Source of the DNA: Gammaproteobacteria bacterium
Lineage (GTDB): Bacteria; Pseudomonadota; Gammaproteobacteria; Eutrophobiales; Eutrophobiaceae
Assembly (NCBI GenBank): GCA_965215365.1
Contig: CBDCDS010000003.1
Coordinates: forward strand, 2,272,001-2,336,000
Direction of reading: 5' to 3'
DNA length: 64,000 nucleotides
Each line of letters begins with the position of its first letter. Within the stretch, counting starts at the first letter, position 1. Under the pieces are notes generated by a model. It was not told the origin of the DNA. It did no database searches and saw only the letters and a list, made by a program, of their open reading frames with translations. A program made the position numbers and the translations under genes. Shown here piece by piece: positions 2,962-52,268 of this stretch.

Positions 2962-4119
2962 TTACCCGGCTGCGTCCCGTAACTGTTCCACCTTGTCTGT
3001 CGTCTCCCAGGTGAAGTCAGGTTGCTCGCGACCGAAGTGGCCGTAGGCGGCGGTTTGCCGGTAGATGGGGCGTAACAGGTTCAGTTCACGGATGATGGCC
3101 TTGGGGCGCAGGTCGAAGAGCTCCTGCACCAGGGTTGCAAGGCGGGACTCTGGCAGGGCGCCGGTGCCGAAGGTGTTAACCATGAGGCTCACTGGCCGGG
3201 CAACGCCGATGGCGTAAGCGACCTGAAGCTCGCACTTTTCGGCCAGACCGGCGGCAACGATGTGCTTGGCCACATAGCGCGCGGCGTAGGCGGCGGAGCG
3301 GTCCACCTTGGACGGGTCCTTGCCGGAAAAGGCACCGCCGCCGTGGTGGGCAACGCCGCCGTAGGTGTCGACGATGATCTTCCTGCCGGTGAGGCCGCAA
3401 TCGCCCACGGGGCCGCCGATGACGAAACGCCCGGTGGGGTTGACCAGATAACGAGTATCATCGCCCAGCATCGCTACCGGCAGCACCGGCTTGATGATCT
3501 CCTCAATGACTGCTTCGGTCACGTCCTTATGGCTGACCTCGGCGTCATGCTGGGTTGACAGCACTACGGTATCCACTGCGGTCGGTCGGCCGTTTTCATA
3601 GCGCACGCTGACCTGGGACTTGGCATCGGGACGCAACCAGGGCAGTTGGCCGGACTTCCGGACTTCTGCCTGCTTTTGCACCAGCCGCTGCGCGTAGGTG
3701 ATGGGAAACGGCATCAGCACATCGGTCTCGTTGCAGGCATAGCCGAACATAAGACCCTGGTCACCAGCACCCTGGTCCAAGTCCATCCCTTCACCTTCAT
3801 TCACTCCCTGGGCGATATCCGGTGACTGTTTGTCCAGTGCCACCAGCACTGCGCAGCCGTTGCCGTCAAACCCCATTGCCGATGAGTCATAACCAATGTC
3901 GCAGATAGTCCGGCGCGCCACCTCCGGGTAGTCGATATTTGCCAACGAGGTGATCTCGCCGGCCAGCATGACCTGCCCGGTCGTTACCAGAGTCTCACAA
4001 GCCACCCGCGCCTGCATGTCCTGCTCCAGCAGGGCATCAAGAATGGCATCGGACACCTGGTCGGCGACCTTGTCCGGATGGCCTTCGGAGACGGATTCCG
4101 AGGTAAACAGGTAATTCAT
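2962..4119 (-). CDS. metK: S-adenosylmethionine synthetase
   Basis: [28 protein letters not shown] motifs. Confidence 0.98.
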
Positions 4120-4283: not shown

Positions 4284-5186
4284 GTGGAGCCGTTGATATT
4301 GAATGACTCTGGTGAAGCGTCCGTGGCCGCACACGAGCGCTCGGTGCAGGAGTACTACGATGTTATGACCAAGGGGTTCCACCTGCAATGGAACCCCGAT
4401 CATATTCACATGGGAGTATTCGAACCCGGGGAGTGCCCTAGGCATAACGAGCACATGAAAGACTCGACCGGGCTGAACCGCGCGCTGGAGCGCATGATCG
4501 AGCTGGTGGTGGCCCCGGCCGCGATTGCGGAGCGCCACCAGGTGGTTGATGCCGGCTGCGGAGTCGGGGGGACGGCAATTCATCTGGCTCGCACGCGCGG
4601 GTGCAGGGTCACCGGCGTCAACCTGAGCAGGTTGCACCTGGAGCTGGCTGACAGGAAGGTTGCCGACGCCGGGCTGGAGGGTCGGGTTGATTTCAAGTAT
4701 GCGGATTGTTCTCAACAGCTGCCGTTCGCCGATGCTTCCGTTGACGTGCTTGTCAACATCGAAAGCGCGCGCCACTACAGCAACCGCGAGCGCTTCCTGC
4801 GGGAGGTGCGCCGCATACTCAGGCCGGGCGGAAAAATCGTTGCCTCAGACTGGATGGCGCGCGCCGGCCTGCAGCCCGAGCAGTACCAGAGATTCATTCG
4901 CCCGCTGTCCCCGGCCTGGGCACTGTGCGACTTGGAAAGTCAATCCACCTACACCCGGCTGTTACACACAAATGGCTTGGAAGTTCTGGAATTCGACGGC
5001 TTTGCCGGCGGGGAACTCGATAACCTGCAAATCATCATGAATACCTACCAGTCACTCCGGCTGTTGCGCCACAGCGGCATGAGGGCGCCCACCCTGCTTA
5101 GCCTGATAGCGCGCATAGAGAAGCTCTGCAACGCCTGGCGTAATGGTTACTTCGATATCAGGCGTTACTGTGCGGTGAAAGCGTAA
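4284..5186 (+). CDS. Class I SAM-dependent methyltransferase (sterol/tocopherol MTase-like), probable RiPP tailoring enzyme
   Basis: HIHMG and VVDAGCGVGG SAM motifs, LRPGG; directly upstream of NHLP precursor; exact start uncertain. Confidence 0.85.
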   Translation: MEPLILNDSGEASVAAHERSVQEYYDVMTKGFHLQWNPDHIHMGVFEPGECPRHNEHMKDSTGLNRALERMIELVVAPAAIAERHQVVDAGCGVGGTAIHLARTRGCRVTGVNLSRLHLELADRKVADAGLEGRVDFKYADCSQQLPFADASVDVLVNIESARHYSNRERFLREVRRILRPGGKIVASDWMARAGLQPEQYQRFIRPLSPAWALCDLESQSTYTRLLHTNGLEVLEFDGFAGGELDNLQIIMNTYQSLRLLRHSGMRAPTLLSLIARIEKLCNAWRNGYFDIRRYCAVKA

Positions 5187-5198
5187 AGCAAATAGTGA

Positions 5199-5227
5199 TT
5201 GAAAACGATCTGCTGGTATGGTAAAAT
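5199..5227 (+). promoter_or_regulatory. Sigma70-type promoter of NHLP precursor
   Basis: TTGAAA-17 bp-TAAAAT with extended TG; GGAG RBS before ATG 5257. Confidence 0.6.
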
Positions 5228-5256
5228 CGCCTTCCGGTTAATCGGAGACATTACAG

Positions 5257-5532
5257 ATGCAGAATCAGGTTGCGTCCGTCCTGAAAACGGCGGAAGACAT
5301 GCGTGCCCACCTGGTCGATAAGGCGCTTGCCGACGAGGATTTCCGGGCGCGGTTGCTCGCAGATCCCAAGGGTGTCACCGCCGCTGAGTTCGGGATACAC
5401 ATTCCGGACATCCTTGATATCCAGGTGCATGAAGCCGACAAGTACACGTTTCACGTGATACTGCCGCCCGGCCCCGAGCTGGATGAGGAGCAACTGGAAA
5501 TGATTGCAGCCGGGCTGCGCTGCTGCATTTGA
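5257..5532 (+). CDS. NHLP (nitrile hydratase-like leader) / proteusin RiPP precursor, predicted core LRCCI
   Basis: KALADEDFRARLLADPK leader motif, VILPP, and ELDEEQLEMIAAG double-glycine-type cleavage motif. Confidence 0.9.
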   Translation: MQNQVASVLKTAEDMRAHLVDKALADEDFRARLLADPKGVTAAEFGIHIPDILDIQVHEADKYTFHVILPPGPELDEEQLEMIAAGLRCCI

Positions 5533-5645
5533 CGGCACGGTGAACGCTGCCGGTCCTGGCCCCGGCACCTGTAGCATGGTCGCGCGTTTTATGTTAGTTT
5601 GCGCGCGCAGGTTTATGCGCAAGTCCGTCTTGCACTCGATTCTCC

Positions 5646-6194
5646 ATGCTGCAAAACCCTTTTTCCGAAGATCTCGCCGCCAGCAAAGGCAAGCGTCAGC
5701 AGCTTGACCGCCTGCTGCGCGTCACCACCCCGCATGAACGTTTCATGCTGGCCGGTATCGGCCTGTTGTTGTGCGCAGGTCTGGCCTGGACTTTGTTCGG
5801 CAGTGTCACCCACAGCATTGTCCGGGACGGTATCCTGCTGGGAACGAGCGCGCATGGAACGCAAAACCAGACCCTGCAAGCCCTGTTGTACTTGTCGTCT
5901 GCTCAGGCGCAGGCCTTGCAGGCGCCGGCGCCGGTCTCGATTGAGATCACCCTGCCCGATGGCTCGAGCCAACGCCTGCCGGGCGAGGTGACCGCGCTGC
6001 GAGACGGCGGTCACTGGCTGCTGCCTGCCGCTGCCGGTTCGCCGAGTCGGGTTGAGATCACCCTGCCGCGCACAGCAAACCTTGCCGTGGCAGAGGAGAT
6101 ACCGTGCCGCCTGCACATCGTCCTGGGCCGGCGGGCACCGGTGCAGCTGTTCCTGCATGGCTGGACGCGGCCACAACCGCCGCCGGGAGGCTGA
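5646..6194 (+). CDS. Short NHLP-system secretion accessory protein (HlyD-like, lacking the long coiled coil)
   Basis: N-terminal QLDRLLRVTTP plus TM helix and C-terminal P..LF typical of NHLM secretion proteins; only 182 aa. Confidence 0.65.
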   Translation: MLQNPFSEDLAASKGKRQQLDRLLRVTTPHERFMLAGIGLLLCAGLAWTLFGSVTHSIVRDGILLGTSAHGTQNQTLQALLYLSSAQAQALQAPAPVSIEITLPDGSSQRLPGEVTALRDGGHWLLPAAAGSPSRVEITLPRTANLAVAEEIPCRLHIVLGRRAPVQLFLHGWTRPQPPPGG

Positions 6195-6199
6195 CAACG

Positions 6200-8389
6200 G
6201 TGCCTCGAAAACCAGCCGCAACGCCACGCGCGCGGCGTGTGGTCACCCCCCTGCGGTTGCAAACGCATACGACCGAATGCGGCGCTGCCTGCATCAGCAG
6301 CGTGTTGGCTTTTTTCGGCTACAATGCGCCGCTCAGCGAGCTGCGCGAACACTGTGAAGTAAACCGTGACGGCTCCTCGGCCGCAGCCCTGATGCGGGCC
6401 GCCAGGCACTACGGTCTTGATTGCAAGGGGCGCCTGACACAGGCGTCGGACTTTTGGAAGCTGCCACTGCCGCTGATCCTGTTCTGGGAGTTCAATCATT
6501 TCCTCATTCTGGAAGGTCTTGACCAGAATCAGGTGTACCTCAACGATCCGGCCTCGGGCCGGCGCAAGTTGTCCTGGGCCGAATTCAACCAGAGCTTTTC
6601 CTGGGTTGCGCTACACTTCAAACCCAAGCCGGAATTCCGGCCGGGAGGCGTGCGTCACAGCATGGCACAACGGCTTTCGGTCTGGCTGCAGGGCGCCTGG
6701 GGCGCGCTGGCGTATGCCTTGGCATGTGGCCTGATGCTGGTTGTGCTGGCCCTGGTCACACCGGTGGCGCTGGGACTATTCGTGGATCATATCCATGCCG
6801 GTAATGAATCCTGGGGCGCCTTCCTGGCCGCAGCACTGGCCGCAGCGGCGCTACTGGCGGCGGGGCTGACCTGGCTGCAACAGCGCTGCCTGCTGCGGTT
6901 GTCCACACGCATTTCAATCGTCGCCGGCGATCATGTCGTCACCCGGCTACTGTCTCTGCCGGTGGAATATTTCAACCACCGGATGATTGGCGATCTGGTC
7001 GCCCGCGTCGGGTCTATCGACAGAATTGCCAAGGCGCTGTCGGAACAGTTTGTAGCACTGGTCATCGAAATAGTTATGAGCGTGGTCTTGCTCGCGGTGA
7101 TGCTGGTCTATGACGTGATGCTGGCCGTTACCGTGCTGACGCTGGCGGCGCTGATGCTGGCGCTGATGCAGCTGCTCAGGCGTCGCCGGACTGAGGCCAA
7201 TTATGCCTTGCGACATGAACAGGACCTGCTGCTCGGCATTGGCTCCCTGTTGTTGAATCAGATAGAAAAGCTGCGCATCAAGGGCGAAGACGACAACGCC
7301 TTCTCCCGCTGGGGCGGCCACCAGGCCCGGGAACTGGCAGCGCGCCAGCGCCACGCCGAACTCGGCCTGCTGGACTCTGCCATACCGACGCTGTTCCTGC
7401 TGCTGGTCAACGCGGTGGTGTTGGCGTTGGCGGCAACACAGGTTATTGCCGGCGCCATGACTCTGGGCGCGCTGGTGAGCTTTTATCTCCTGGCCGCCAT
7501 GTTCCTGGAATCTGTGGGACGCTGGGCGGAACTGTCCCGATGGCGCCGGACACTTGAGACCGACATGCAGTGTCTAGATGACATTACGGAAGCGGCGCCA
7601 GACCGGACTCCACAGCGCGTAGGGCGACCGACGGGCGCCATTGCCACCTTAAACGGCCGGCTGCGACTGGCTGGGCGGCTGGAACTGCGCAACCTCAGCT
7701 ACGGCTATAATCGCCAGCGACCGCCATTGGTCAAGGCTTTTAACCTGACCATTGAACCGGGGCAACGCATCGCCGTGGTGGGGCCAAGTGGTTCAGGCAA
7801 ATCGACCCTGGCGCGCCTGGTGGCTGGCGTCTATCAGCCCTGGTCGGGCGAGATCCTGTTCGACGGTTTCCCGCGGCGGGAGATTCCCGACGAGGTCATG
7901 TCCCGCTCACTGGCCATGGTTGACCAGGATGTCATCCTGTTTTCCGGCAGCGTGAGAGATAACATTACCCTGTGGGACAGCGCCGTACCGGATGACGACC
8001 TGATCGCCGCGGCCCGGGACGCCCACATCCACGATGACATCATCAGTCGTGCGCGCGGCTATGCCACGCAGATTACCGAAGACGGGAGTAATTTCAGCGG
8101 CGGCCAGCGCCAGCGGCTGGAAATTGCCCGGGCCTTAGTCAGGAACCCGACGCTGTTGATACTTGATGAGGCCAGCAGCGCGCTGGACACCGTGACTGAA
8201 ATGGGCGTGGAAAATGCCCTGCGGCGGCGCGGCGTGAGTTCCCTCATCATCGCCCACCGGCTGAGTACGGTGCGTGACTGCGACCTGATCATCGTACTCG
8301 ACAAGGGCGAACAAGTGCAGCGCGGCAGCCATGATGAACTGGTGGCAGACAAAGACGGGCTGTATCACCGGTTGCTGCTGGCAGACTAA
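6200..8389 (+). CDS. NHLP export ABC transporter, C39 peptidase/permease/ATPase
   Basis: QTHTTECGAAC and FNHF (Cys/His dyad), Walker A GPSGSGKS, FSGGQRQR; GTG 6200 preceded by GGGAGG. Confidence 0.92.
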   Translation: MPRKPAATPRARRVVTPLRLQTHTTECGAACISSVLAFFGYNAPLSELREHCEVNRDGSSAAALMRAARHYGLDCKGRLTQASDFWKLPLPLILFWEFNHFLILEGLDQNQVYLNDPASGRRKLSWAEFNQSFSWVALHFKPKPEFRPGGVRHSMAQRLSVWLQGAWGALAYALACGLMLVVLALVTPVALGLFVDHIHAGNESWGAFLAAALAAAALLAAGLTWLQQRCLLRLSTRISIVAGDHVVTRLLSLPVEYFNHRMIGDLVARVGSIDRIAKALSEQFVALVIEIVMSVVLLAVMLVYDVMLAVTVLTLAALMLALMQLLRRRRTEANYALRHEQDLLLGIGSLLLNQIEKLRIKGEDDNAFSRWGGHQARELAARQRHAELGLLDSAIPTLFLLLVNAVVLALAATQVIAGAMTLGALVSFYLLAAMFLESVGRWAELSRWRRTLETDMQCLDDITEAAPDRTPQRVGRPTGAIATLNGRLRLAGRLELRNLSYGYNRQRPPLVKAFNLTIEPGQRIAVVGPSGSGKSTLARLVAGVYQPWSGEILFDGFPRREIPDEVMSRSLAMVDQDVILFSGSVRDNITLWDSAVPDDDLIAAARDAHIHDDIISRARGYATQITEDGSNFSGGQRQRLEIARALVRNPTLLILDEASSALDTVTEMGVENALRRRGVSSLIIAHRLSTVRDCDLIIVLDKGEQVQRGSHDELVADKDGLYHRLLLAD

Positions 8390-8407
8390 CCCGCAGAGCT
8401 CACCAAT

Positions 8408-11311
8408 ATGAACTCGCCACAAACCTGCAAACATGCCATAACAGTCGGTACGCCGGTGCCCTGTGCCGCCAACCTGCCGTTGGACATGGATGATTCGCAA
8501 TCCGTGTGGTTTGTCGAACACGGCGCCATAGACGTGTTTCTGGTCGAGCGCCAGGACGGTATCGATCAAACCGCGCCGCAACACTTGTTACGCGCCGCGG
8601 CCGGCCGCCTGTTGCCCGGCGTCGCTGCGCAACGGCAAGACACCACCCTGGGCCTGATCGCCAAAGGTTTACCCGGCACGGTATTGCGGCGGCTGCCGGT
8701 TTCCGGGCTGGCCGCGTTGGCCGCCGACGAACTGGCGCAACAGGTCGATGCCTGGGTGATGGACTTGTCCGCCGCCTTGTCCCGCGACCTGGTGACCCCC
8801 CCGCGTGCGGACCTGCTCATCGAACCGGCGCCGGCGCCGGCGGCAATGACCGGCCGGCTGTCAACGCGCCGCGACGTAGTCTGGCTGAGGCAACCGCCGC
8901 CGGGCGCGAGTTTGTACATGGAACTGGTGGACCCGGCGCTTGGCGATAGCGCCGACACAAGCGCCATACTGGCGCTGACGCCCCATGTCTGGCTGACCCT
9001 GCTGGAAGCGGCAGAGCTGCCCGTTTACGCGTCCGCAACGCTGGCCGCCGAGCAGCGGCTGTTGCCGGCCCTGGCAGACTTCCACGCCCTAGCGTTCGCG
9101 ACGGCGCGGCTCAACCGCAGTCTGGCGCTCATCGATCAGGCCAATCTGGAACGGGAACGCACGGCCGGGCGGCGTAGCGATGAAGAAGATGCCCGGTGGC
9201 GCCTGTTCAACCTGTACGGCTTGGCGCAACAGCAACCGGACACCGCCCCGGGCGCGGCGCTGTTTGAGGCGCTGAAACTTATCGGCCAGCACGAGGGTAT
9301 CGAATTCGTCTGGCCCGCGCCGCGGCCTGAGGACGCTCCCGACATTGATCTGGAGCAGGTACTGCAGGCCTCCGCCACGCGCCGGCGCCAGGTGCGTCTC
9401 ATGCCTGAGGACAAGTGGTGGACCGGCGACAGCGGCGCGCTGCTGGCGTTCCGCAATGATAACGGCGAGCCGGTGGTATTATTGCCCGGCGACCTCGGTG
9501 GTTACCGGGAAGTCGAGCCGCGCACCCGGCGCCAGGCCCGGGTAACGGCTGCACGCGCAGCCGCGTTGCGGGCGCAGGCCTGGCAGTTCTACCCGGCGCT
9601 GCCGGCCGGGCGCGTTGGCATACGCGAGCTGCTGCAGGTCGCCGGGAAGGGTTTGCCGGCAGCTTTGACACTGTGCACACTGGCCGGATTGGCGGGCGGC
9701 CTGATCATGCTGTTACCGGCCGTGTTGGCAGGCATTATCGCCGACCGGGTTATCCCGGGCGGCGAGCTCAGCGTGTTGTATCTGTCCGCCACCCTACTGG
9801 CCTTGCTGGCGCTGCCGGCGGCGTTGCTGTATGTGCTGCGCGGCAGCGCCCTGATGCGTCTGGAAGGGCGTGCTGCGTCCCGTCTGGAAGCGGCTTTCTG
9901 GGACCGTTTGTTGCGGCTGCCGCCGCATTTTCTGGAACGCTATAACACCGGCGACACCGCGCTGCGCAGCCGCGCCTTCCAGCGTGTGCGCGATGCACTG
10001 CAAGAGACGCTGACCAGCGCCGTGCTGGCGGTGATTTTCCTGTCACCGGCGTTATTGCTCATCTCCTGGTACGACGCCAGACTGGGCGCAGTATGCACAG
10101 CCCTGGCGCTGCTGTCGCTGTTGCTGACGGTGGCATTAGGTTTGAGCCAGCTGCGGCCGCGCGGCCGCGCGCTACGAGTTGCCAGCCACCTCAGCGGCAG
10201 GCTCAACCAGCTCATAAACGGCATTGTCAAACTGCGCGTGACCGGGGCGGAAGGATCTGCGTTCGGGGTGTGGGCGCAACACTACCATGACCAGAAACGC
10301 GCCGAGTTGCGCCACGGCGCCAGAGACGCGCACTTACAAGCTTTCAGCGCGGCGTTGCCATTTCTGGCCGCCGCCGTACTGCTGCTGGCGGCCACCCTGC
10401 CAGGGCCAGCGGCTATTCCGGTCGGGGAGTTTCTGACCGTGTTCATGCTGTTCCTGCTGTTCCAGTCGGCAGTGGCGCGGCTGGGTGCCTCATTCAGTAC
10501 GCTGGCCACCGTCATTACCGCGCTGGACCAGGTGCGGCCATTCCTCGACGAACCCCCGGAACTCAGCGTCGGCGGGGAATCCGCCGGGGAGTTGCGCGGG
10601 GCAATACGGGTTGACCATGTCAGCTTTCGTTATGACTCCGACAGTCCACTGGTGCTCGACGATGTATCAATAGATGCCCGCCCCGGTGAATTCATCGCCA
10701 TTACCGGCGAGTCCGGCTGCGGCAAGAGTACGCTGTTCAAACTTCTGACCGGCTTGGAGCAGCCGGATACCGGTTCGATATACTACGACGGACGCGAGCT
10801 CAGGCGCCTGAATATCAAACAGGTGCGGCGCCAGCTTGGCGTGGTGCCACAGAAAATTCAGTTGCACCCGCTGGACTTGTGGGACAACATCGTCGGCAGC
10901 CATGAACAGGCCAGTGACGAGGACGTCTGGCACGCAGCCGGTCTCGCTTGCGTGGATACCGATATCAAATCCATGCCGATGAAGATGTTGACGACGGTGG
11001 GTCATAACCTCATATCGGGCGGCGAGGCGCAATGTGTGAGCATTGCCCATATACTGCTGCGCAACCCCCGGATTCTGCTGCTCGACGAAGCGACCAACCT
11101 GCTGGACAATGCGCGCCAGACGACCATCATGGAAAACGTGGAGAGGCTGAACACCACCCGGATCGTCATCGCGCACCGGATATCCACCCTGCGGCAAGCC
11201 GACCGCATCTATGTGCTGAAAGACGCCAGGGTCATCCAGACCGGGACTTTTGAGGAGCTATCGGCAATGCCAGGAGCTTTCCGCGACCTGATACAACGAC
11301 AGCTTGTCTGA
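8408..11311 (+). CDS. NHLP export ABC transporter permease/ATPase (second subunit, N-terminal cNMP-like region)
   Basis: WW..DSGALLAF motif, Walker A GESGCGKS, LLLDEAT; paired with the C39 transporter. Confidence 0.88.
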   Translation: MNSPQTCKHAITVGTPVPCAANLPLDMDDSQSVWFVEHGAIDVFLVERQDGIDQTAPQHLLRAAAGRLLPGVAAQRQDTTLGLIAKGLPGTVLRRLPVSGLAALAADELAQQVDAWVMDLSAALSRDLVTPPRADLLIEPAPAPAAMTGRLSTRRDVVWLRQPPPGASLYMELVDPALGDSADTSAILALTPHVWLTLLEAAELPVYASATLAAEQRLLPALADFHALAFATARLNRSLALIDQANLERERTAGRRSDEEDARWRLFNLYGLAQQQPDTAPGAALFEALKLIGQHEGIEFVWPAPRPEDAPDIDLEQVLQASATRRRQVRLMPEDKWWTGDSGALLAFRNDNGEPVVLLPGDLGGYREVEPRTRRQARVTAARAAALRAQAWQFYPALPAGRVGIRELLQVAGKGLPAALTLCTLAGLAGGLIMLLPAVLAGIIADRVIPGGELSVLYLSATLLALLALPAALLYVLRGSALMRLEGRAASRLEAAFWDRLLRLPPHFLERYNTGDTALRSRAFQRVRDALQETLTSAVLAVIFLSPALLLISWYDARLGAVCTALALLSLLLTVALGLSQLRPRGRALRVASHLSGRLNQLINGIVKLRVTGAEGSAFGVWAQHYHDQKRAELRHGARDAHLQAFSAALPFLAAAVLLLAATLPGPAAIPVGEFLTVFMLFLLFQSAVARLGASFSTLATVITALDQVRPFLDEPPELSVGGESAGELRGAIRVDHVSFRYDSDSPLVLDDVSIDARPGEFIAITGESGCGKSTLFKLLTGLEQPDTGSIYYDGRELRRLNIKQVRRQLGVVPQKIQLHPLDLWDNIVGSHEQASDEDVWHAAGLACVDTDIKSMPMKMLTTVGHNLISGGEAQCVSIAHILLRNPRILLLDEATNLLDNARQTTIMENVERLNTTRIVIAHRISTLRQADRIYVLKDARVIQTGTFEELSAMPGAFRDLIQRQLV

Positions 11312-12945: not shown

Positions 12946-14259
12946 ATGAAAGTTGCGCTTAAATCCCTGGGTTGTCGCCTGAACGAAGCTGAGCTGGAGC
13001 ATTGGGCGGCGGGGTTCGGGGCGCACGGCCATCAACTGGTCGAGGTCACGGAGCGCGCCGATCTGGTCGTCATCAACACCTGCGCGGTGACCGCTGAGGC
13101 GGCAAAAAAATCCAGACAACTGATCCGGCGCACGCAACGCCATAATGCCACGGCCAAGCTGGTGGTAAGCGGCTGCTACGCCAGTCTGCAACCACGGCAG
13201 GCGGCGCAACTGCCCGGCGTTGACCTAGTGGTGGACAACCTCGACAAGGAGCGTCTGGTTGACATCGTGACCAGCAAATTTGCCGGAGAACTGGCCGTTG
13301 ACACCCTGCCCGCCACTGCCACCGAACCCGGCGCCAATGCCCTGTTTGCGCGCGGGCGCAATCGGGCCTTCATCAAAGTGCAGGATGGTTGCCGGCACAA
13401 ATGCACCTTCTGTATCGTTACCGTCGCCCGCGGCACCGAGCGCAGCCGCCCGACGCCGGCGCTCGTGGATGAGGTTAACCGGGTGCACTCGGACGGCGTG
13501 CTGGAAGTCATTCTCACCGGCGTGCACCTCGGTGGCTACGGGCGCGAGGCAGGTACAGATCTGGCAGGCCTGATCAAAACCCTGCTTGCTGAAACCGATA
13601 TACCAAGAATACGCCTGGGCTCACTGGAACCCTGGAACATACCTGATACTTTCGTCACCTTGTTCGAGAACCCCAGATTGATGCCGCACTTACACCTGCC
13701 CTTGCAGAGCGGCAGCGATACCGTGCTGCGGCGCATGGGCCGGCGCTGCCGGCGGGCGGAGTTTGTGCGTCTGGCGAGAACTCTGAAAGAGCATGTGCCG
13801 AAGCTGAATATTACCACCGACATCATCGCCGGCTTCCCCGGCGAAACCGCGTCGGAATGGCAACAAACCCTGGATTTCTGTCGGGAAAACAGGTTTTCCC
13901 ACATCCACATCTTTCCCTATTCAGCTCGGACCGGCACCCGCGCGGCGACGCTGCCGACCCAGGTGTCAGCAACGACAAAGAAACAGCGCTGCCAGGAATT
14001 ACAGCGTCTGGGACAACGGCTGAAACACGATTATATGCGACAGCACCTAGGACAGCGCTGTGAAGTACTGGTGGAAAACGATGCCGGCAGGATTAACGGC
14101 CAACAGGTGTATTTCGGTTACTCACCGAACTACCTGCGCACCGCCATCCCGCGCTCAGGCAAGGTGCCACGCCCCAACAGTATCATCGAAGTACAACTCA
14201 GAGACTATGCTGAGGACATGGCCACGCTGGTGTCAGCTCAGCTGCATTCCGTAGAATAA
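12946..14259 (+). CDS. mtaB: tRNA t6A37 methylthiotransferase (radical SAM)
   Basis: LGCRLN, INTCAVT, KVQDGCRHKCTFC motifs. Confidence 0.9.
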   Translation: MKVALKSLGCRLNEAELEHWAAGFGAHGHQLVEVTERADLVVINTCAVTAEAAKKSRQLIRRTQRHNATAKLVVSGCYASLQPRQAAQLPGVDLVVDNLDKERLVDIVTSKFAGELAVDTLPATATEPGANALFARGRNRAFIKVQDGCRHKCTFCIVTVARGTERSRPTPALVDEVNRVHSDGVLEVILTGVHLGGYGREAGTDLAGLIKTLLAETDIPRIRLGSLEPWNIPDTFVTLFENPRLMPHLHLPLQSGSDTVLRRMGRRCRRAEFVRLARTLKEHVPKLNITTDIIAGFPGETASEWQQTLDFCRENRFSHIHIFPYSARTGTRAATLPTQVSATTKKQRCQELQRLGQRLKHDYMRQHLGQRCEVLVENDAGRINGQQVYFGYSPNYLRTAIPRSGKVPRPNSIIEVQLRDYAEDMATLVSAQLHSVE

Positions 14260-21381: not shown

Positions 21382-22062
21382 TTAGGCCGCAAGGGTTTCG
21401 ATGACATCGCCCTTGCGTTGCAGTACGGTCACGCCCTGCGCTAAGGCCGCCTGCTTCAGCTCGTCATGGAAGTGGAAGGCGGCCAGTGCCAAGCGCTGCC
21501 GGCGGTCGGCGTGTTCCGGGAATAAGCGCCGGAAGTTGGGCGCCTTCTGGTCCAGCAGGCGCGCTAAGTCGTTCTCATGTGCCTTGTACTTCACTTCCAC
21601 GACAAATACCTCGCGACCGTTCACTAACAGCAGGTCGAACTCGTCCTCAAGGCCGGCGCGGCTGCGCGTGATGTTCCGGTCGACGAAGTCGAAGCGCACC
21701 CCGGCCAGCGTCGGATTGGCCTTGAGGCTGTTGTGGTAGAACTCCTCAGCCGCCGCCCCCAGGCTGTTGCCGACGCCGCCGTACATTTCCGCCAGACGGT
21801 TCAGCTTGGCATCGGTCTTCGCCAGCTGGGCATCGGTCTTCGCCAGCTGGGCATCGGTCTTCGCCAGCTGGGCATCGGTCTTCGCCAGCTGGGCATCGGT
21901 CTTCGCCTGCTGCGCGGCGTTTTTTTCAATCAGGGCTTCGGTCTTCGCCAGCTTGGCCTCGGTCTTCGCCTGCTGCGCGGCGTTTTTCGCCAGCTGGGCA
22001 TCAGTACGGTCTTGCGCGGCGGCCAAGCCGGCAACCAGCGCTTTCAGTTCTTCATCGGTCAT
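21382..22062 (-). CDS. Coiled-coil repeat protein with C-terminal PD-(D/E)XK nuclease-like domain (DUF3782-like)
   Basis: KTDAQLA heptads, then EFDLLL...VVEVK. Confidence 0.7.
   Translation of the reverse strand: MTDEELKALVAGLAAAQDRTDAQLAKNAAQQAKTEAKLAKTEALIEKNAAQQAKTDAQLAKTDAQLAKTDAQLAKTDAQLAKTDAKLNRLAEMYGGVGNSLGAAAEEFYHNSLKANPTLAGVRFDFVDRNITRSRAGLEDEFDLLLVNGREVFVVEVKYKAHENDLARLLDQKAPNFRRLFPEHADRRQRLALAAFHFHDELKQAALAQGVTVLQRKGDVIETLAA
21802..21906. repeat. 21-bp coding tandem repeat, 5 copies plus degenerate extension to ~22008
   Basis: (CAGCTGGGCATCGGTCTTCGC)n. Confidence 0.9.
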
Positions 22063-51341: not shown

Positions 51342-51419
51342 TGCAGCATAAGGACATGCTGCCAGTAACAGCAAGCACGTCAGTGCTTGAAAATGACAAA
51401 TCGTCAGGATAGACGATTT

Positions 51420-52211
51420 GCAAACTACATCCGTGTAGTTTGCCCCGATGGGGCCAGCTGCGCTGTCCAAATTCGTTCCAGACGAATTTGTGCAAACTAC
51501 ATCCGTGTAGTTTGCCCCGATGGGGCCAGCTGCGCTGTCCAAATTCGTTCCAGACGAATTTGTGCAAACTACATCCGTGTAGTTTGCCCCGATGGGGCCA
51601 GCTGCGCTGTCCAAATTCGTTCCAGACGAATTTGTGCAAACTACATCCGTGTAGTTTGCCCCGATGGGGCCAGCTGCGCTGTCCAAATTCGTTCCAGACG
51701 AATTTGTGCAAACTACATCCGTGTAGTTTGCCCCGATGGGGCCAGCTGCGCTGTCCAAATTCGTTCCAGACGAATTTGTGCAAACTACATCCGTGTAGTT
51801 TGCCCCGATGGGGCCAGCTGCGCTGTCCAAATTCGTTCCAGACGAATTTGTGCAAACTACATCCGTGTAGTTTGCCCCGATGGGGCCAGCTGCGCTGTCC
51901 AAATTCGTTCCAGACGAATTTGTGCAAACTACATCCGTGTAGTTTGCCCCGATGGGGCCAGCTGCGCTGTCCAAATTCGTTCCAGACGAATTTGTGCAAA
52001 CTACATCCGTGTAGTTTGCCCCGATGGGGCCAGCTGCGCTGTCCAAATTCGTTCCAGACGAATTTGTGCAAACTACATCCGTGTAGTTTGCCCCGATGGG
52101 GCCAGCTGCGCTGTCCAAATTCGTTCCAGACGAATTTGTGCAAACTACATCCGTGTAGTTTGCCCCGATGGGGCCAGCTGCGCTGTCCAAATTCGTTCCA
52201 GACGAATTTGT
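51420..52211. repeat. Tandem array of 11 identical 72-bp multi-hairpin units
   Basis: Unit GCAAACTACATCCGTGTAGTTTGCCCCGATGGGGCCAGCTGCGCTGTCCAAATTCGTTCCAGACGAATTTGT; no variable spacers. Confidence 0.97.
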
Positions 52212-52268
52212 GCACAGCGATAGCTGCCCGAAGGGTTGCGTCCATGGATGGATGCAATGAGGGATCTG

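What the first reader, a model, noticed from the sequence alone, without database searches (positions are those of the whole stretch)
4284..11311. Minimal proteusin/NHLP RiPP cluster with a five-residue core (LRCCI) and only a methyltransferase as tailoring enzyme
Seen: MTase, precursor with its own strong promoter, short HlyD-like protein, C39 ABC and second ABC. The 86-aa leader ends ELDEEQLEMIAAG, leaving LRCCI. Established: C39 transporters cut after GG/AG-type motifs; proteusin clusters usually encode YcaO, radical SAM or LanM enzymes; from memory, short Cys-rich cores (LCCCW type) occur in sponge-microbiome clusters with a YcaO and a halogenase. None of those is present here. Inference: a new methylated pentapeptide (signal or metal-binding dithiol), a product matured in trans, or a decaying cluster. 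metK lies divergently next to it.
Basis: partly seen in the sequence, partly recalled or inferred. Interest (0 to 1): 0.75.

Follow-up and report, generated by a model that had tools for sequence, protein, structure and literature searches.

The report
Split sponge-type peptide gene cluster
These tiny-peptide genes are real but only half of a pathway: 390 kb away the same genome carries a ring-forming enzyme and a predicted lipid-attaching enzyme that sit beside these genes in close relatives, so the product is likely a methylated, ring-containing, possibly lipid-tagged pentapeptide resembling a known sponge-microbiome family, not a methyl-only peptide.

Summary
All five genes are real: methyltransferase (MT), NHLP precursor with core LRCCI, short HlyD-like protein, C39-ABC and second ABC. 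"Only a methyltransferase" holds for the window, not the genome. About 390 kb away lie a second precursor (FGVALCC), the genome's only YcaO (LynD/TruD type) and a protein whose predicted fold is an ABBA prenyltransferase (PT) barrel. In the nearest relative both enzymes (92% and 86% identical) lie in one cluster with the window genes. The core is not truncated: all 26 aligned precursors have 4-7-residue cores. LRCCI is one base from LCCCI and recurs in a second strain. dN/dS of 0.13-0.25 argues against decay, except for HlyD (0.62). The MT accompanies YcaO in 13 of 13 relatives and shares its tree with the window precursor. Verdict: a split, reduced variant of sponge-microbiome srp-type proteusin clusters, without Trp or halogenase. 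Likely product: bis-thiazoline LRCCI, methylated (site unknown), possibly prenylated; no chemistry was shown. This scan already noted the partner locus and the srp-plus-PT theme on other DNA (49 notes, at least 33 genomes). Its value is a minimal three-enzyme set for finding the family's unknown end product.

The parts
2962..4119 (-). metK (SAM synthetase), single copy; flanks the cluster in this genus
   Evidence: adjacent to a cluster gene in 12 of 13 YcaO-positive relatives
4299..5186 (+). Class I SAM methyltransferase of the RebM/AtmM/MitM/TleD/GPP-MT structural clade; likely start TTG 4299 (alternative GTG 4284); target site unknown
   Evidence: co-occurrence; tree; dN/dS 0.13
5199..5227 (+). 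Sigma-70-like promoter site (10 of 12, TG extension) before the precursor; function not shown
   Evidence: 1 found, 0.7 expected; largely kept in G006
5257..5532 (+). NHLP/proteusin precursor E1, 91 aa; leader with L(X)4L motif (LDEEQL) and AG cleavage site
   Evidence: TIGR03793 over cut-off; dN/dS 0.22
5515..5529 (+). Core peptide LRCCI (one T>C change from LCCCI; same stop position as in G006)
   Evidence: second strain with LRCCI
5646..6194 (+). Short HlyD-like adaptor lacking about 117 central residues (helical hairpin/lipoyl region) present in 296-305-aa relatives; relaxed selection
   Evidence: dN/dS 0.62
6200..8389 (+). C39 peptidase-containing ABC transporter (NHLM ABC1 type); predicted leader protease, likely also for the second precursor
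   Evidence: only such gene in the genome; dN/dS 0.16
8408..11311 (+). Second ABC transporter (NHLM ABC2 type). In relative G006 the YcaO follows directly; here DNA similarity breaks at about 11320 and resumes outside the window at G000:C3:1,885,131-1,881,729 (minus strand), where precursor E2 (FGVALCC), YcaO and the prenyltransferase-fold gene lie
   Evidence: dN/dS 0.22

Best explanation
The window holds the precursor, methyltransferase and protease/export half of an srp-like proteusin pathway whose YcaO, second precursor and prenyltransferase-fold gene lie about 390 kb away, and the two halves likely work together to make a methylated, possibly prenylated, bis-thiazoline pentapeptide from LRCCI. 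Shown: the genes, the split, orthology of the remote YcaO and PT with genes inside the cluster of the nearest relative, short cores across the family, purifying selection, and predicted folds. Inferred steps: (1) the YcaO binds the L(X)4L leader motif and cyclodehydrates both Cys (-36.02 Da; thiazolines, since no oxidase was found); (2) the MT adds a methyl to this peptide, at the C-terminal carboxylate as my first choice (about 40%), else the freed N-terminus (about 25%), a prenyl group (about 20%) or a Cys sulfur/other (about 15%); (3) the PT adds an isoprenyl group to a non-indole acceptor (about 50% that it acts on this peptide); (4) ABC1 cuts after AG and serves both precursors. It would work like aeruginosamide end-capping but with different enzymes.
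For: The genome has one YcaO and two NHLP precursors; the remote operon is E2-YcaO-PT. The YcaO is a full LynD/TruD/MusD-type enzyme (E 5e-166; over TIGR03604 and TIGR03882 cut-offs). It is 92% identical and sister (100/100) to the YcaO directly after ABC2 in G006, and the DNA breakpoint maps to the ABC2 end. Precursor and YcaO lie within 11.2 kb in 10 of 11 relatives where both were placed; G018 (same genus) and G424 (another family) are also split. The MT is in 13 of 13 YcaO-positive and 1 of 9 YcaO-negative relatives, the one being a 77%-complete genome with the MT at a contig end. MT, E1 and ABC1 recover the same four-genome clade (UFBoot 97, 92, 100). PT fold: pLDDT 91.9; all top 19 VIA hits are prenyltransferase barrels (best Z 16.6, rmsd 4.5, 302 aligned; next fold Z 5.9), Foldseek agrees; the family keeps E62, K124, R213, K338, K350, Y352. 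dN/dS vs G006 is 0.13-0.25 for MT, E1, ABC1, ABC2, YcaO and PT, against 0.11-0.26 for three control genes. Precedents: SrpC thiazoline formation on LCCCW (PMC10286304); LahSB C-terminal methyl esters on Met/Ile/Val and aeruginosamide (PMC11285071); AgeMTPT (PMC10496146).
Against: No chemistry or expression was shown. The remote YcaO has its own adjacent precursor (E2), so it may not accept E1; Arg before Cys is untested as a substrate context. The remote PT does not group with the PT that lies beside E1-type precursors in G005, G020 and G008 (not a split), although the AU test does not reject that grouping (p 0.138). The PT shows a longer G000 branch (0.14 vs 0.03), 7 synonymous to 7 non-synonymous changes on that branch (weak outgroup) and a 15-residue longer, low-confidence C-terminus. 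This genome lacks the desaturase fusion found in most fetched clusters, so the pathway may be incomplete. The MT is only distantly like LahSB (rank 35 of 35, E 8e-9), and its structural neighbours include O-, N- and C-methyltransferases within about 1 Z. G424 has YcaO and PT but no MT hit.
Confidence: 0.62

Rival explanations
1. The window is self-sufficient: the MT alone modifies LRCCI (for example S-, N- or C-terminal methylation) and the peptide is exported with free or oxidised thiols; the remote operon serves only FGVALCC.
For: MT, E1 and ABC1 share one history. The remote YcaO has its own precursor and promoter-like site. Cys S-methylation by a proteusin MT (PtyS) is described (PMC11285071).
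Against: No complete relative has the MT without a YcaO. G005, G006 and G020 also have one YcaO for two precursors in one cluster. E1 keeps the L(X)4L motif used by LynD-type enzymes.
Confidence: 0.14
2. The real product comes from E2 (FGVALCC). The window supplies the shared protease/exporter and MT, while E1 is drifting (Cys to Arg) after loss of partner enzymes, or the whole system is in early decay.
For: Loss of desaturase, second MT, second PT and amine oxidase relative to G006; HlyD dN/dS 0.62 with 10 non-synonymous to 3 synonymous changes on the G000 branch; Arg to Cys change next to the ABC2 signature only in G000; Arg at core position 2 in only 2 of 26 aligned precursors.
Against: E1 dN/dS 0.22 (few sites); LRCCI also stands in a strain whose other cluster proteins are 90-97% identical; all frames are open; the short HlyD is shared with G006 and with a separate clade.
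Confidence: 0.13
3. The MT does not touch the peptide backbone but C-methylates the isoprenoid (the prenyl diphosphate, like BezA/GPP-MT, or the attached prenyl chain, like TleD), pairing with the PT.
For: GPP C-methyltransferase (Z 29.3), BezA (27.9), FPP-MT (27.3) and TleD are among the structural neighbours; the PT's top hit MpnD and TleC are indolactam PTs; MT copy number equals PT copy number in 20 of 20 genus genomes at least 90% complete; one distant MT homologue is fused to a polyprenyl-synthase domain (P0289).
Against: O- and N-methyltransferases (AtmM Z 30.6, MitM 29.6) tie or rank higher. The copy-number match is 7 genomes with 0/0, 10 with 1/1 and 3 related genomes with 2/2; the three less complete genomes mismatch. 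No MT-PT fusion among 150 representatives. The MT tree follows E1, not the PT. In split genomes G000 and G018 MT and PT lie apart.
Confidence: 0.08
4. The MT is an unrelated small-molecule methyltransferase that sits beside metK for SAM supply.
For: It is divergent from metK in G000, G005, G006, G011 and G020; its fold is that of small-molecule MTs.
Against: In eight other relatives it lies far from metK, 1.6-2.8 kb from the YcaO; it is absent from all 7 complete cluster-less relatives; it lies in the cluster in another family and in metagenome contigs.
Confidence: 0.03

Closest known systems
srp clusters (sponge-derived RiPP proteusins: SrpE core LCCCW, SrpC YcaO, SrpI brominase; Nguyen et al. 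2021, not held, known from citing papers PMC10286304, PMC10858898, PMC12615548, bioRxiv 2023.06.09.544420)
   Same: NHLP leader with L(X)4L motif, five-residue Cys-rich core, YcaO, two ABC transporters. Seven same-genus relatives carry the exact LCCCW core, and five relatives carry a Trp halogenase beside the YcaO.
   Different: Core LRCCI without Trp, no halogenase in the genome, YcaO in a separate operon 390 kb away with a second precursor. The papers I could read assign no function to an MT or PT of these clusters; the original paper may annotate them.
'LCCC' proteusin families of mesophotic sponge bacteria (PMC11832590, passages)
   Same: Two transporter genes, YcaO, precursor and genes of unknown function; conserved LCCC motif with variable ends.
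   Different: Split layout and Arg in the core here; that paper names no enzyme function for the unknown genes in the passages seen.
Linear cyanobactins (aeruginosamide B; AgeMTPT)
   Same: Short linear thiazol(in)e peptide with a predicted prenyltransferase plus SAM methyltransferase; LynD/TruD-type cyclodehydratase.
   Different: NHLP leader and C39 transporter instead of PatA/PatG proteases; MT and PT are separate genes; the PT has no sequence match to solved PTs; no azoline oxidase found.
LahSB C-terminal carboxy-methyltransferase (lah cluster)
   Same: Class I SAM MT in a double-glycine RiPP pathway; reported substrates end in Met, Ile or Val, and this core ends in Ile.
   Different: Only weak sequence likeness (E 8e-9, last of 35 hits); not among the top 50 structural neighbours.
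Leader-dependent ABBA peptide prenyltransferase MppC (PMC12715784, part 1 of 3) and proteusin PT-terpene cyclases (Hubrich et al. 2024, not held, recalled)
   Same: ABBA-fold PT in a pathway with a long structured leader; relatives here add a squalene-cyclase-like protein.
   Different: MppC prenylates Trp indole; neither core in this genome has Trp, and this genome lacks the cyclase-like gene.

Membership tests
NHLP/proteusin RiPP system | Nitrile-hydratase-like leader over the TIGR03793 cut-off | tested here: met
   63.9 bits vs 50.9
NHLP/proteusin RiPP system | Double-glycine-type cleavage site and C39 peptidase ABC transporter | tested here: met
   AG site, G86 invariant in 26 rows; Peptidase_C39 E 3e-31
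NHLP/proteusin RiPP system | NHLM export trio (TIGR03794/03796/03797) over cut-offs | tested here: inconclusive
   Best models for each gene but under cut-off: 30/156, 815/853, 653/709
srp clusters (strict) | LCCCW core with C-terminal Trp | tested here: not met
   Cores are LRCCI and FGVALCC
srp clusters (strict) | Flavin-dependent brominase SrpI | tested here: not met
   No PF04820 hit and no tblastn hit with a relative's halogenase in a 97.6% complete genome
srp clusters (strict) | Thiazoline-forming YcaO cyclodehydratase | tested here: met
   Present in the genome but outside the cluster; about 60% identical to YcaO of LCCCW relatives; activity not tested
srp clusters (strict) | L(X)4L leader recognition motif | tested here: met
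   LDEEQL in E1, LSEEQL in E2; published motif LTEEQL/ITEEQL
srp clusters (strict) | Direct sequence orthology to published SrpC/SrpE | not testable with these tools
   Original paper not held; no named Srp sequence was returned by any search
srp clusters (strict) | Sponge-microbiome host | not tested
   Habitat inferred only from likeness to the family; related records are titled Gammaproteobacteria MAGs
Linear cyanobactins | PatE-type precursor with PatA/PatG proteases | tested here: not met
   NHLP leader and C39 transporter; no such protease gene in either locus
Linear cyanobactins | Fused MT-PT end-capping enzyme | tested here: not met
   Separate genes 393 kb apart; no PT-profile match in 150 MT representatives
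ABBA prenyltransferases (remote gene) | Ten-stranded PT-barrel fold | tested here: met
   Predicted model
ABBA prenyltransferases (remote gene) | Sequence membership of a curated PT family | tested here: inconclusive
   No Pfam, NCBIfam or PDB sequence hit; Atlas leads under 0.9 to Trp_DMAT and PTase_Orf2 clusters
ABBA prenyltransferases (remote gene) | Prenyl transfer activity | not testable with these tools
   Needs an assay

The most novel reading that the evidence does not exclude
The widespread sponge-symbiont LCCC(X) proteusins are not simple brominated azoline peptides but lipid-capped, methylated mini-peptides made by an unnamed prenyltransferase family that does not need an indole and a dedicated methyltransferase family. 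This genome carries the smallest working set (YcaO + PT + MT) spread over two operons, one protease-transporter serves two precursors, and an adaptor that lost its hairpin twice implies release by a route other than a classical type I tunnel.
Probability: 0.25. Interest if true: 0.7.

Novelty: new variant of a known kind. Interest (0 to 1): 0.45.

Why it matters
srp-type clusters are widespread and highly transcribed in sponge microbiomes, yet their ecological role is described as elusive (bioRxiv 2023.06.09.544420) and several of their genes as of unknown function (PMC11832590). This genome has shed the halogenase, cyclase-like, desaturase-like and oxidase genes but kept YcaO, PT and MT under purifying selection. 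Three enzymes and two Trp-less cores are therefore enough to ask what the conserved PT and MT do, and any prenylation here cannot be on indole. It is also a caution for genome mining: a 'minimal' cluster can be half of a split one (seen here, in G018 and in G424).

Tried and rejected
Premature stop in the core: rejected. Arg as a one-assembly error: unlikely, since a distinct strain has it; no read-level check was obtained. Halogenase, LanC/LanM or SagB-type oxidase in trans: none found (one weak SagB hit at 18 bits vs cut-off 78). Radical SAM: 14 matches in the genome; none lies in either cluster, the nearest (window 12946-14259) is beyond two unrelated genes; they were not classified one by one. 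MT-PT fusion as a Rosetta stone: none in 150 representatives; the other fusions point in several directions. Fold and Atlas searches could not fix the MT's acceptor; LahSB is not among the 50 VIA rows, which does not exclude it. Complex prediction of PT with E1: no answer (score 0.11, mark 0.32), not used either way. 'The remote unit came from another family': first suggested, whose support labels were displaced by re-rooting; re-read values are 56 and SH-aLRT 81, and the AU test gave p 0.138, so it is not claimed. metK as a needed SAM supply: not supported outside the genus (no metK in the stretches fetched from G076 and G424). Papers not held: Nguyen 2021 and Hubrich 2024. Eight library searches listed no paper on the MT or PT of srp clusters; supplements of PMC10858898 gave 0 hits; bioRxiv supplements were closed and may bear on this.
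Full report
Observation. The five genes are present as described: a class I SAM methyltransferase (MT; likely start TTG 4299), a 91-aa precursor E1 over the TIGR03793 cut-off with leader ending IAAG and core LRCCI, a 182-aa HlyD-like protein, a C39-ABC transporter and a second ABC transporter, whose best models are the NHLM export models, each under cut-off. metK is divergent. A sigma-70-like site precedes E1, but one site against 0.7 expected shows no strength.

The missing enzymes are elsewhere in the genome. The assembly (2.73 Mb, 3 contigs, 97.6% complete) has two NHLP precursors and one YcaO. On the same contig about 390 kb away lies an operon of precursor E2 (core FGVALCC), YcaO and a 387-aa gene without Pfam, NCBIfam or PDB sequence match. 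The YcaO is a full LynD/TruD/MusD-type enzyme. The unknown protein folds with pLDDT 91.9, and all 19 top structural matches are ABBA prenyltransferase (PT) barrels (best Z 16.6, rmsd 4.5, 302 aligned; next fold Z 5.9; Foldseek agrees). Its family keeps basic and aromatic residues on the barrel strands; their role in diphosphate binding is my inference. No halogenase, LanC domain or SagB-type oxidase over cut-off was found. Two polyprenyl synthases are present.

The two loci are one system in relatives. In G006 the order is metK, MT (94%), three unrelated genes, E1 (92%), HlyD, ABC1, ABC2, YcaO (92%), second MT, second precursor (RCCC), desaturase fusion, PT (86%), second PT. DNA similarity to the window ends just after ABC2 and resumes at the remote YcaO and PT; the two YcaOs are sisters at 100/100 in a 17-row tree. 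Precursor and YcaO are within 11.2 kb in 10 of 11 relatives where both were placed. G018 is split differently (YcaO, halogenase, MT and desaturase 324 kb from precursor, PT and transporters), and G424 in another family has its precursor far from YcaO and PT. Which layout is ancestral is not settled.

The core is not truncated. All 10 database homologues have 4-5-residue cores (LCCCI, LCCCV, LCCCA, LCCI, MCTCI, VCCI, FCCCI, LCCC twice, LSCCL). The 26 precursors I aligned have 4-7; two longer ones (G007, G025) and one duplicate-type G020 core were left out. LRCCI is one T>C change from G006's LCCCI with the same stop. It also stands in a second database sequence. No read-level check was obtained.

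The MT belongs to the pathway. Among 22 same-genus relatives, 13 have a YcaO and all 13 have the MT; of the 9 without, only a 77%-complete genome has it, at a contig end. Kin are not independent, but the MT also lies in such clusters in another family (G076) and in metagenome contigs, while G424 lacks it. MT, E1 and ABC1 recover the same four-genome clade (97, 92, 100; trees used 17, 16 and 13 selected rows, not all fetched). The PT does not recover it, although the AU test does not reject a grouping with the E1-adjacent PTs (p 0.138). MT and PT copy numbers match in 20 of 20 genomes at least 90% complete (7 with 0/0, 10 with 1/1, 3 related ones with 2/2) and mismatch in the 3 less complete ones. 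The MT fold ties between O-, N- and C-methyltransferases of small molecules (AtmM Z 30.6, MitM 29.6, GPP-MT 29.3); LahSB is only a weak hit. The acceptor cannot be read from sequence.

Decay. Pairwise dN/dS against G006 is 0.13 (MT), 0.22 (E1), 0.16 (ABC1), 0.22 (ABC2), 0.17 (YcaO) and 0.25 (PT), against 0.11-0.26 for metK, RND and MFP; HlyD is 0.62 (one pair, simple counting). The short HlyD lacks about 117 central residues, as in G006 and, with low identity, in the LCCCW clade, while five aligned relatives keep 296-305 aa. Signs of relaxation exist: the PT's longer branch and longer C-terminus, one change beside the ABC2 signature, and loss of the desaturase, second MT, second PT and amine oxidase genes.

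metK. A cluster gene abuts metK in 12 of 13 YcaO-positive relatives (G016 undetermined), but which gene differs, and the stretches fetched from the other family show no metK. It is most simply an old insertion site.

Mechanism (inferred). The YcaO binds the L(X)4L motif, as described for LynD (PMC10858898, section 12), and forms two thiazolines. The MT methylates the peptide; I favour the C-terminal carboxylate because it is free while the leader is attached in the cytoplasm and because LahSB and aeruginosamide are precedents (PMC11285071 passages; PMC10496146 passages). The PT may add an isoprenyl group to a non-indole acceptor. ABC1 cuts after AG for both precursors. Overall confidence 0.62; rivals are a methyl-only peptide (0.14), E1 drift or early decay (0.13), methylation of the prenyl group (0.08) and an unrelated MT (0.03).

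Comparison with what is known. It works like srp clusters: SrpC makes thiazolines in LCCCW and SrpI brominates Trp (PMC10286304, part 1 of 3; PMC12615548 passages). Seven relatives have LCCCW; five relatives have a halogenase, two LCCCW genomes show short remnants, and none of six genomes with Trp-less cores has one. Strict membership fails on core and halogenase, so I call it an srp-like variant. Related LCCC clusters with unknown genes are reported as widespread (PMC11832590 passages; PMC9426513 passages) and highly transcribed (bioRxiv 2023.06.09.544420, part 1 and section 10). Leader-dependent ABBA prenylation is known for MppC (PMC12715784, part 1 of 3). PMC12426817 and PMC13290415 gave reference-list passages only. 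Nguyen 2021 and Hubrich 2024 were not held; what I say of them comes from citing papers or recall. Eight searches listed no paper on the MT or PT of these clusters.

Earlier notes of this scan. After my own fold result I found that the partner operon had been reported with the same reading and that 49 notes in at least 33 genomes mention srp, proteusin and prenyltransferase. These are not independent support.

Verdict. Real feature, first reading partly right. New variant of a known kind; interest 0.45, resting on the minimal, Trp-less enzyme set as a test system.

Noticed in passing
window 51419-52214: Perfect tandem array, 72-bp unit, 11.1 copies, 100% identical; related copies elsewhere in this genome and near the G006 cluster.
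   Followed up: no
window 21802-22002: 21-bp repeat, 9.6 copies, 80% matches; probably coding, not examined.
   Followed up: no
window 5646-6194; L047:9576-10127: The same central part of the HlyD-like adaptor is missing in two lineages that are only about 37% identical, suggesting two separate losses; an RND/MFP pair flanks most related clusters and sits at 456-460 kb in this genome.
   Followed up: partly
L047:3101-4411 and orthologues: Relatives encode an NHLP-leader-like domain fused to a squalene-cyclase-like domain (weak hits); absent here.
   Followed up: partly
L047:15051-17504 and orthologues: Fatty-acid-desaturase domain fused to a GlnE/GlnD-like nucleotidyltransferase region in most related clusters; absent here.
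   Followed up: partly
L052:5721-6107; L059:11856-12152: Halogenase reduced to short N-terminal remnants in LCCCW genomes G015 and G014; no halogenase hit in G019 either.
   Followed up: partly
L153:13114-18868 (G025): A different NHLP cluster in another family: precursor, radical-SAM-like gene, and distant homologues of the PT (25%) and cyclase-like domain (27%).
   Followed up: no
P0271, P0289, P0324, P0348: Distant members of the MT family are fused to cNMP-binding, polyprenyl-synthase, nitroreductase or PatG-type domains, several of them RiPP- or isoprenoid-linked.
   Followed up: partly
L012:15900-18800: The remote operon is bordered by a DNA methylase-like gene and restriction/helicase-like ORFs (labels from my reading of the sequence), a possible trace of mobile DNA at the breakpoint.
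   Followed up: no
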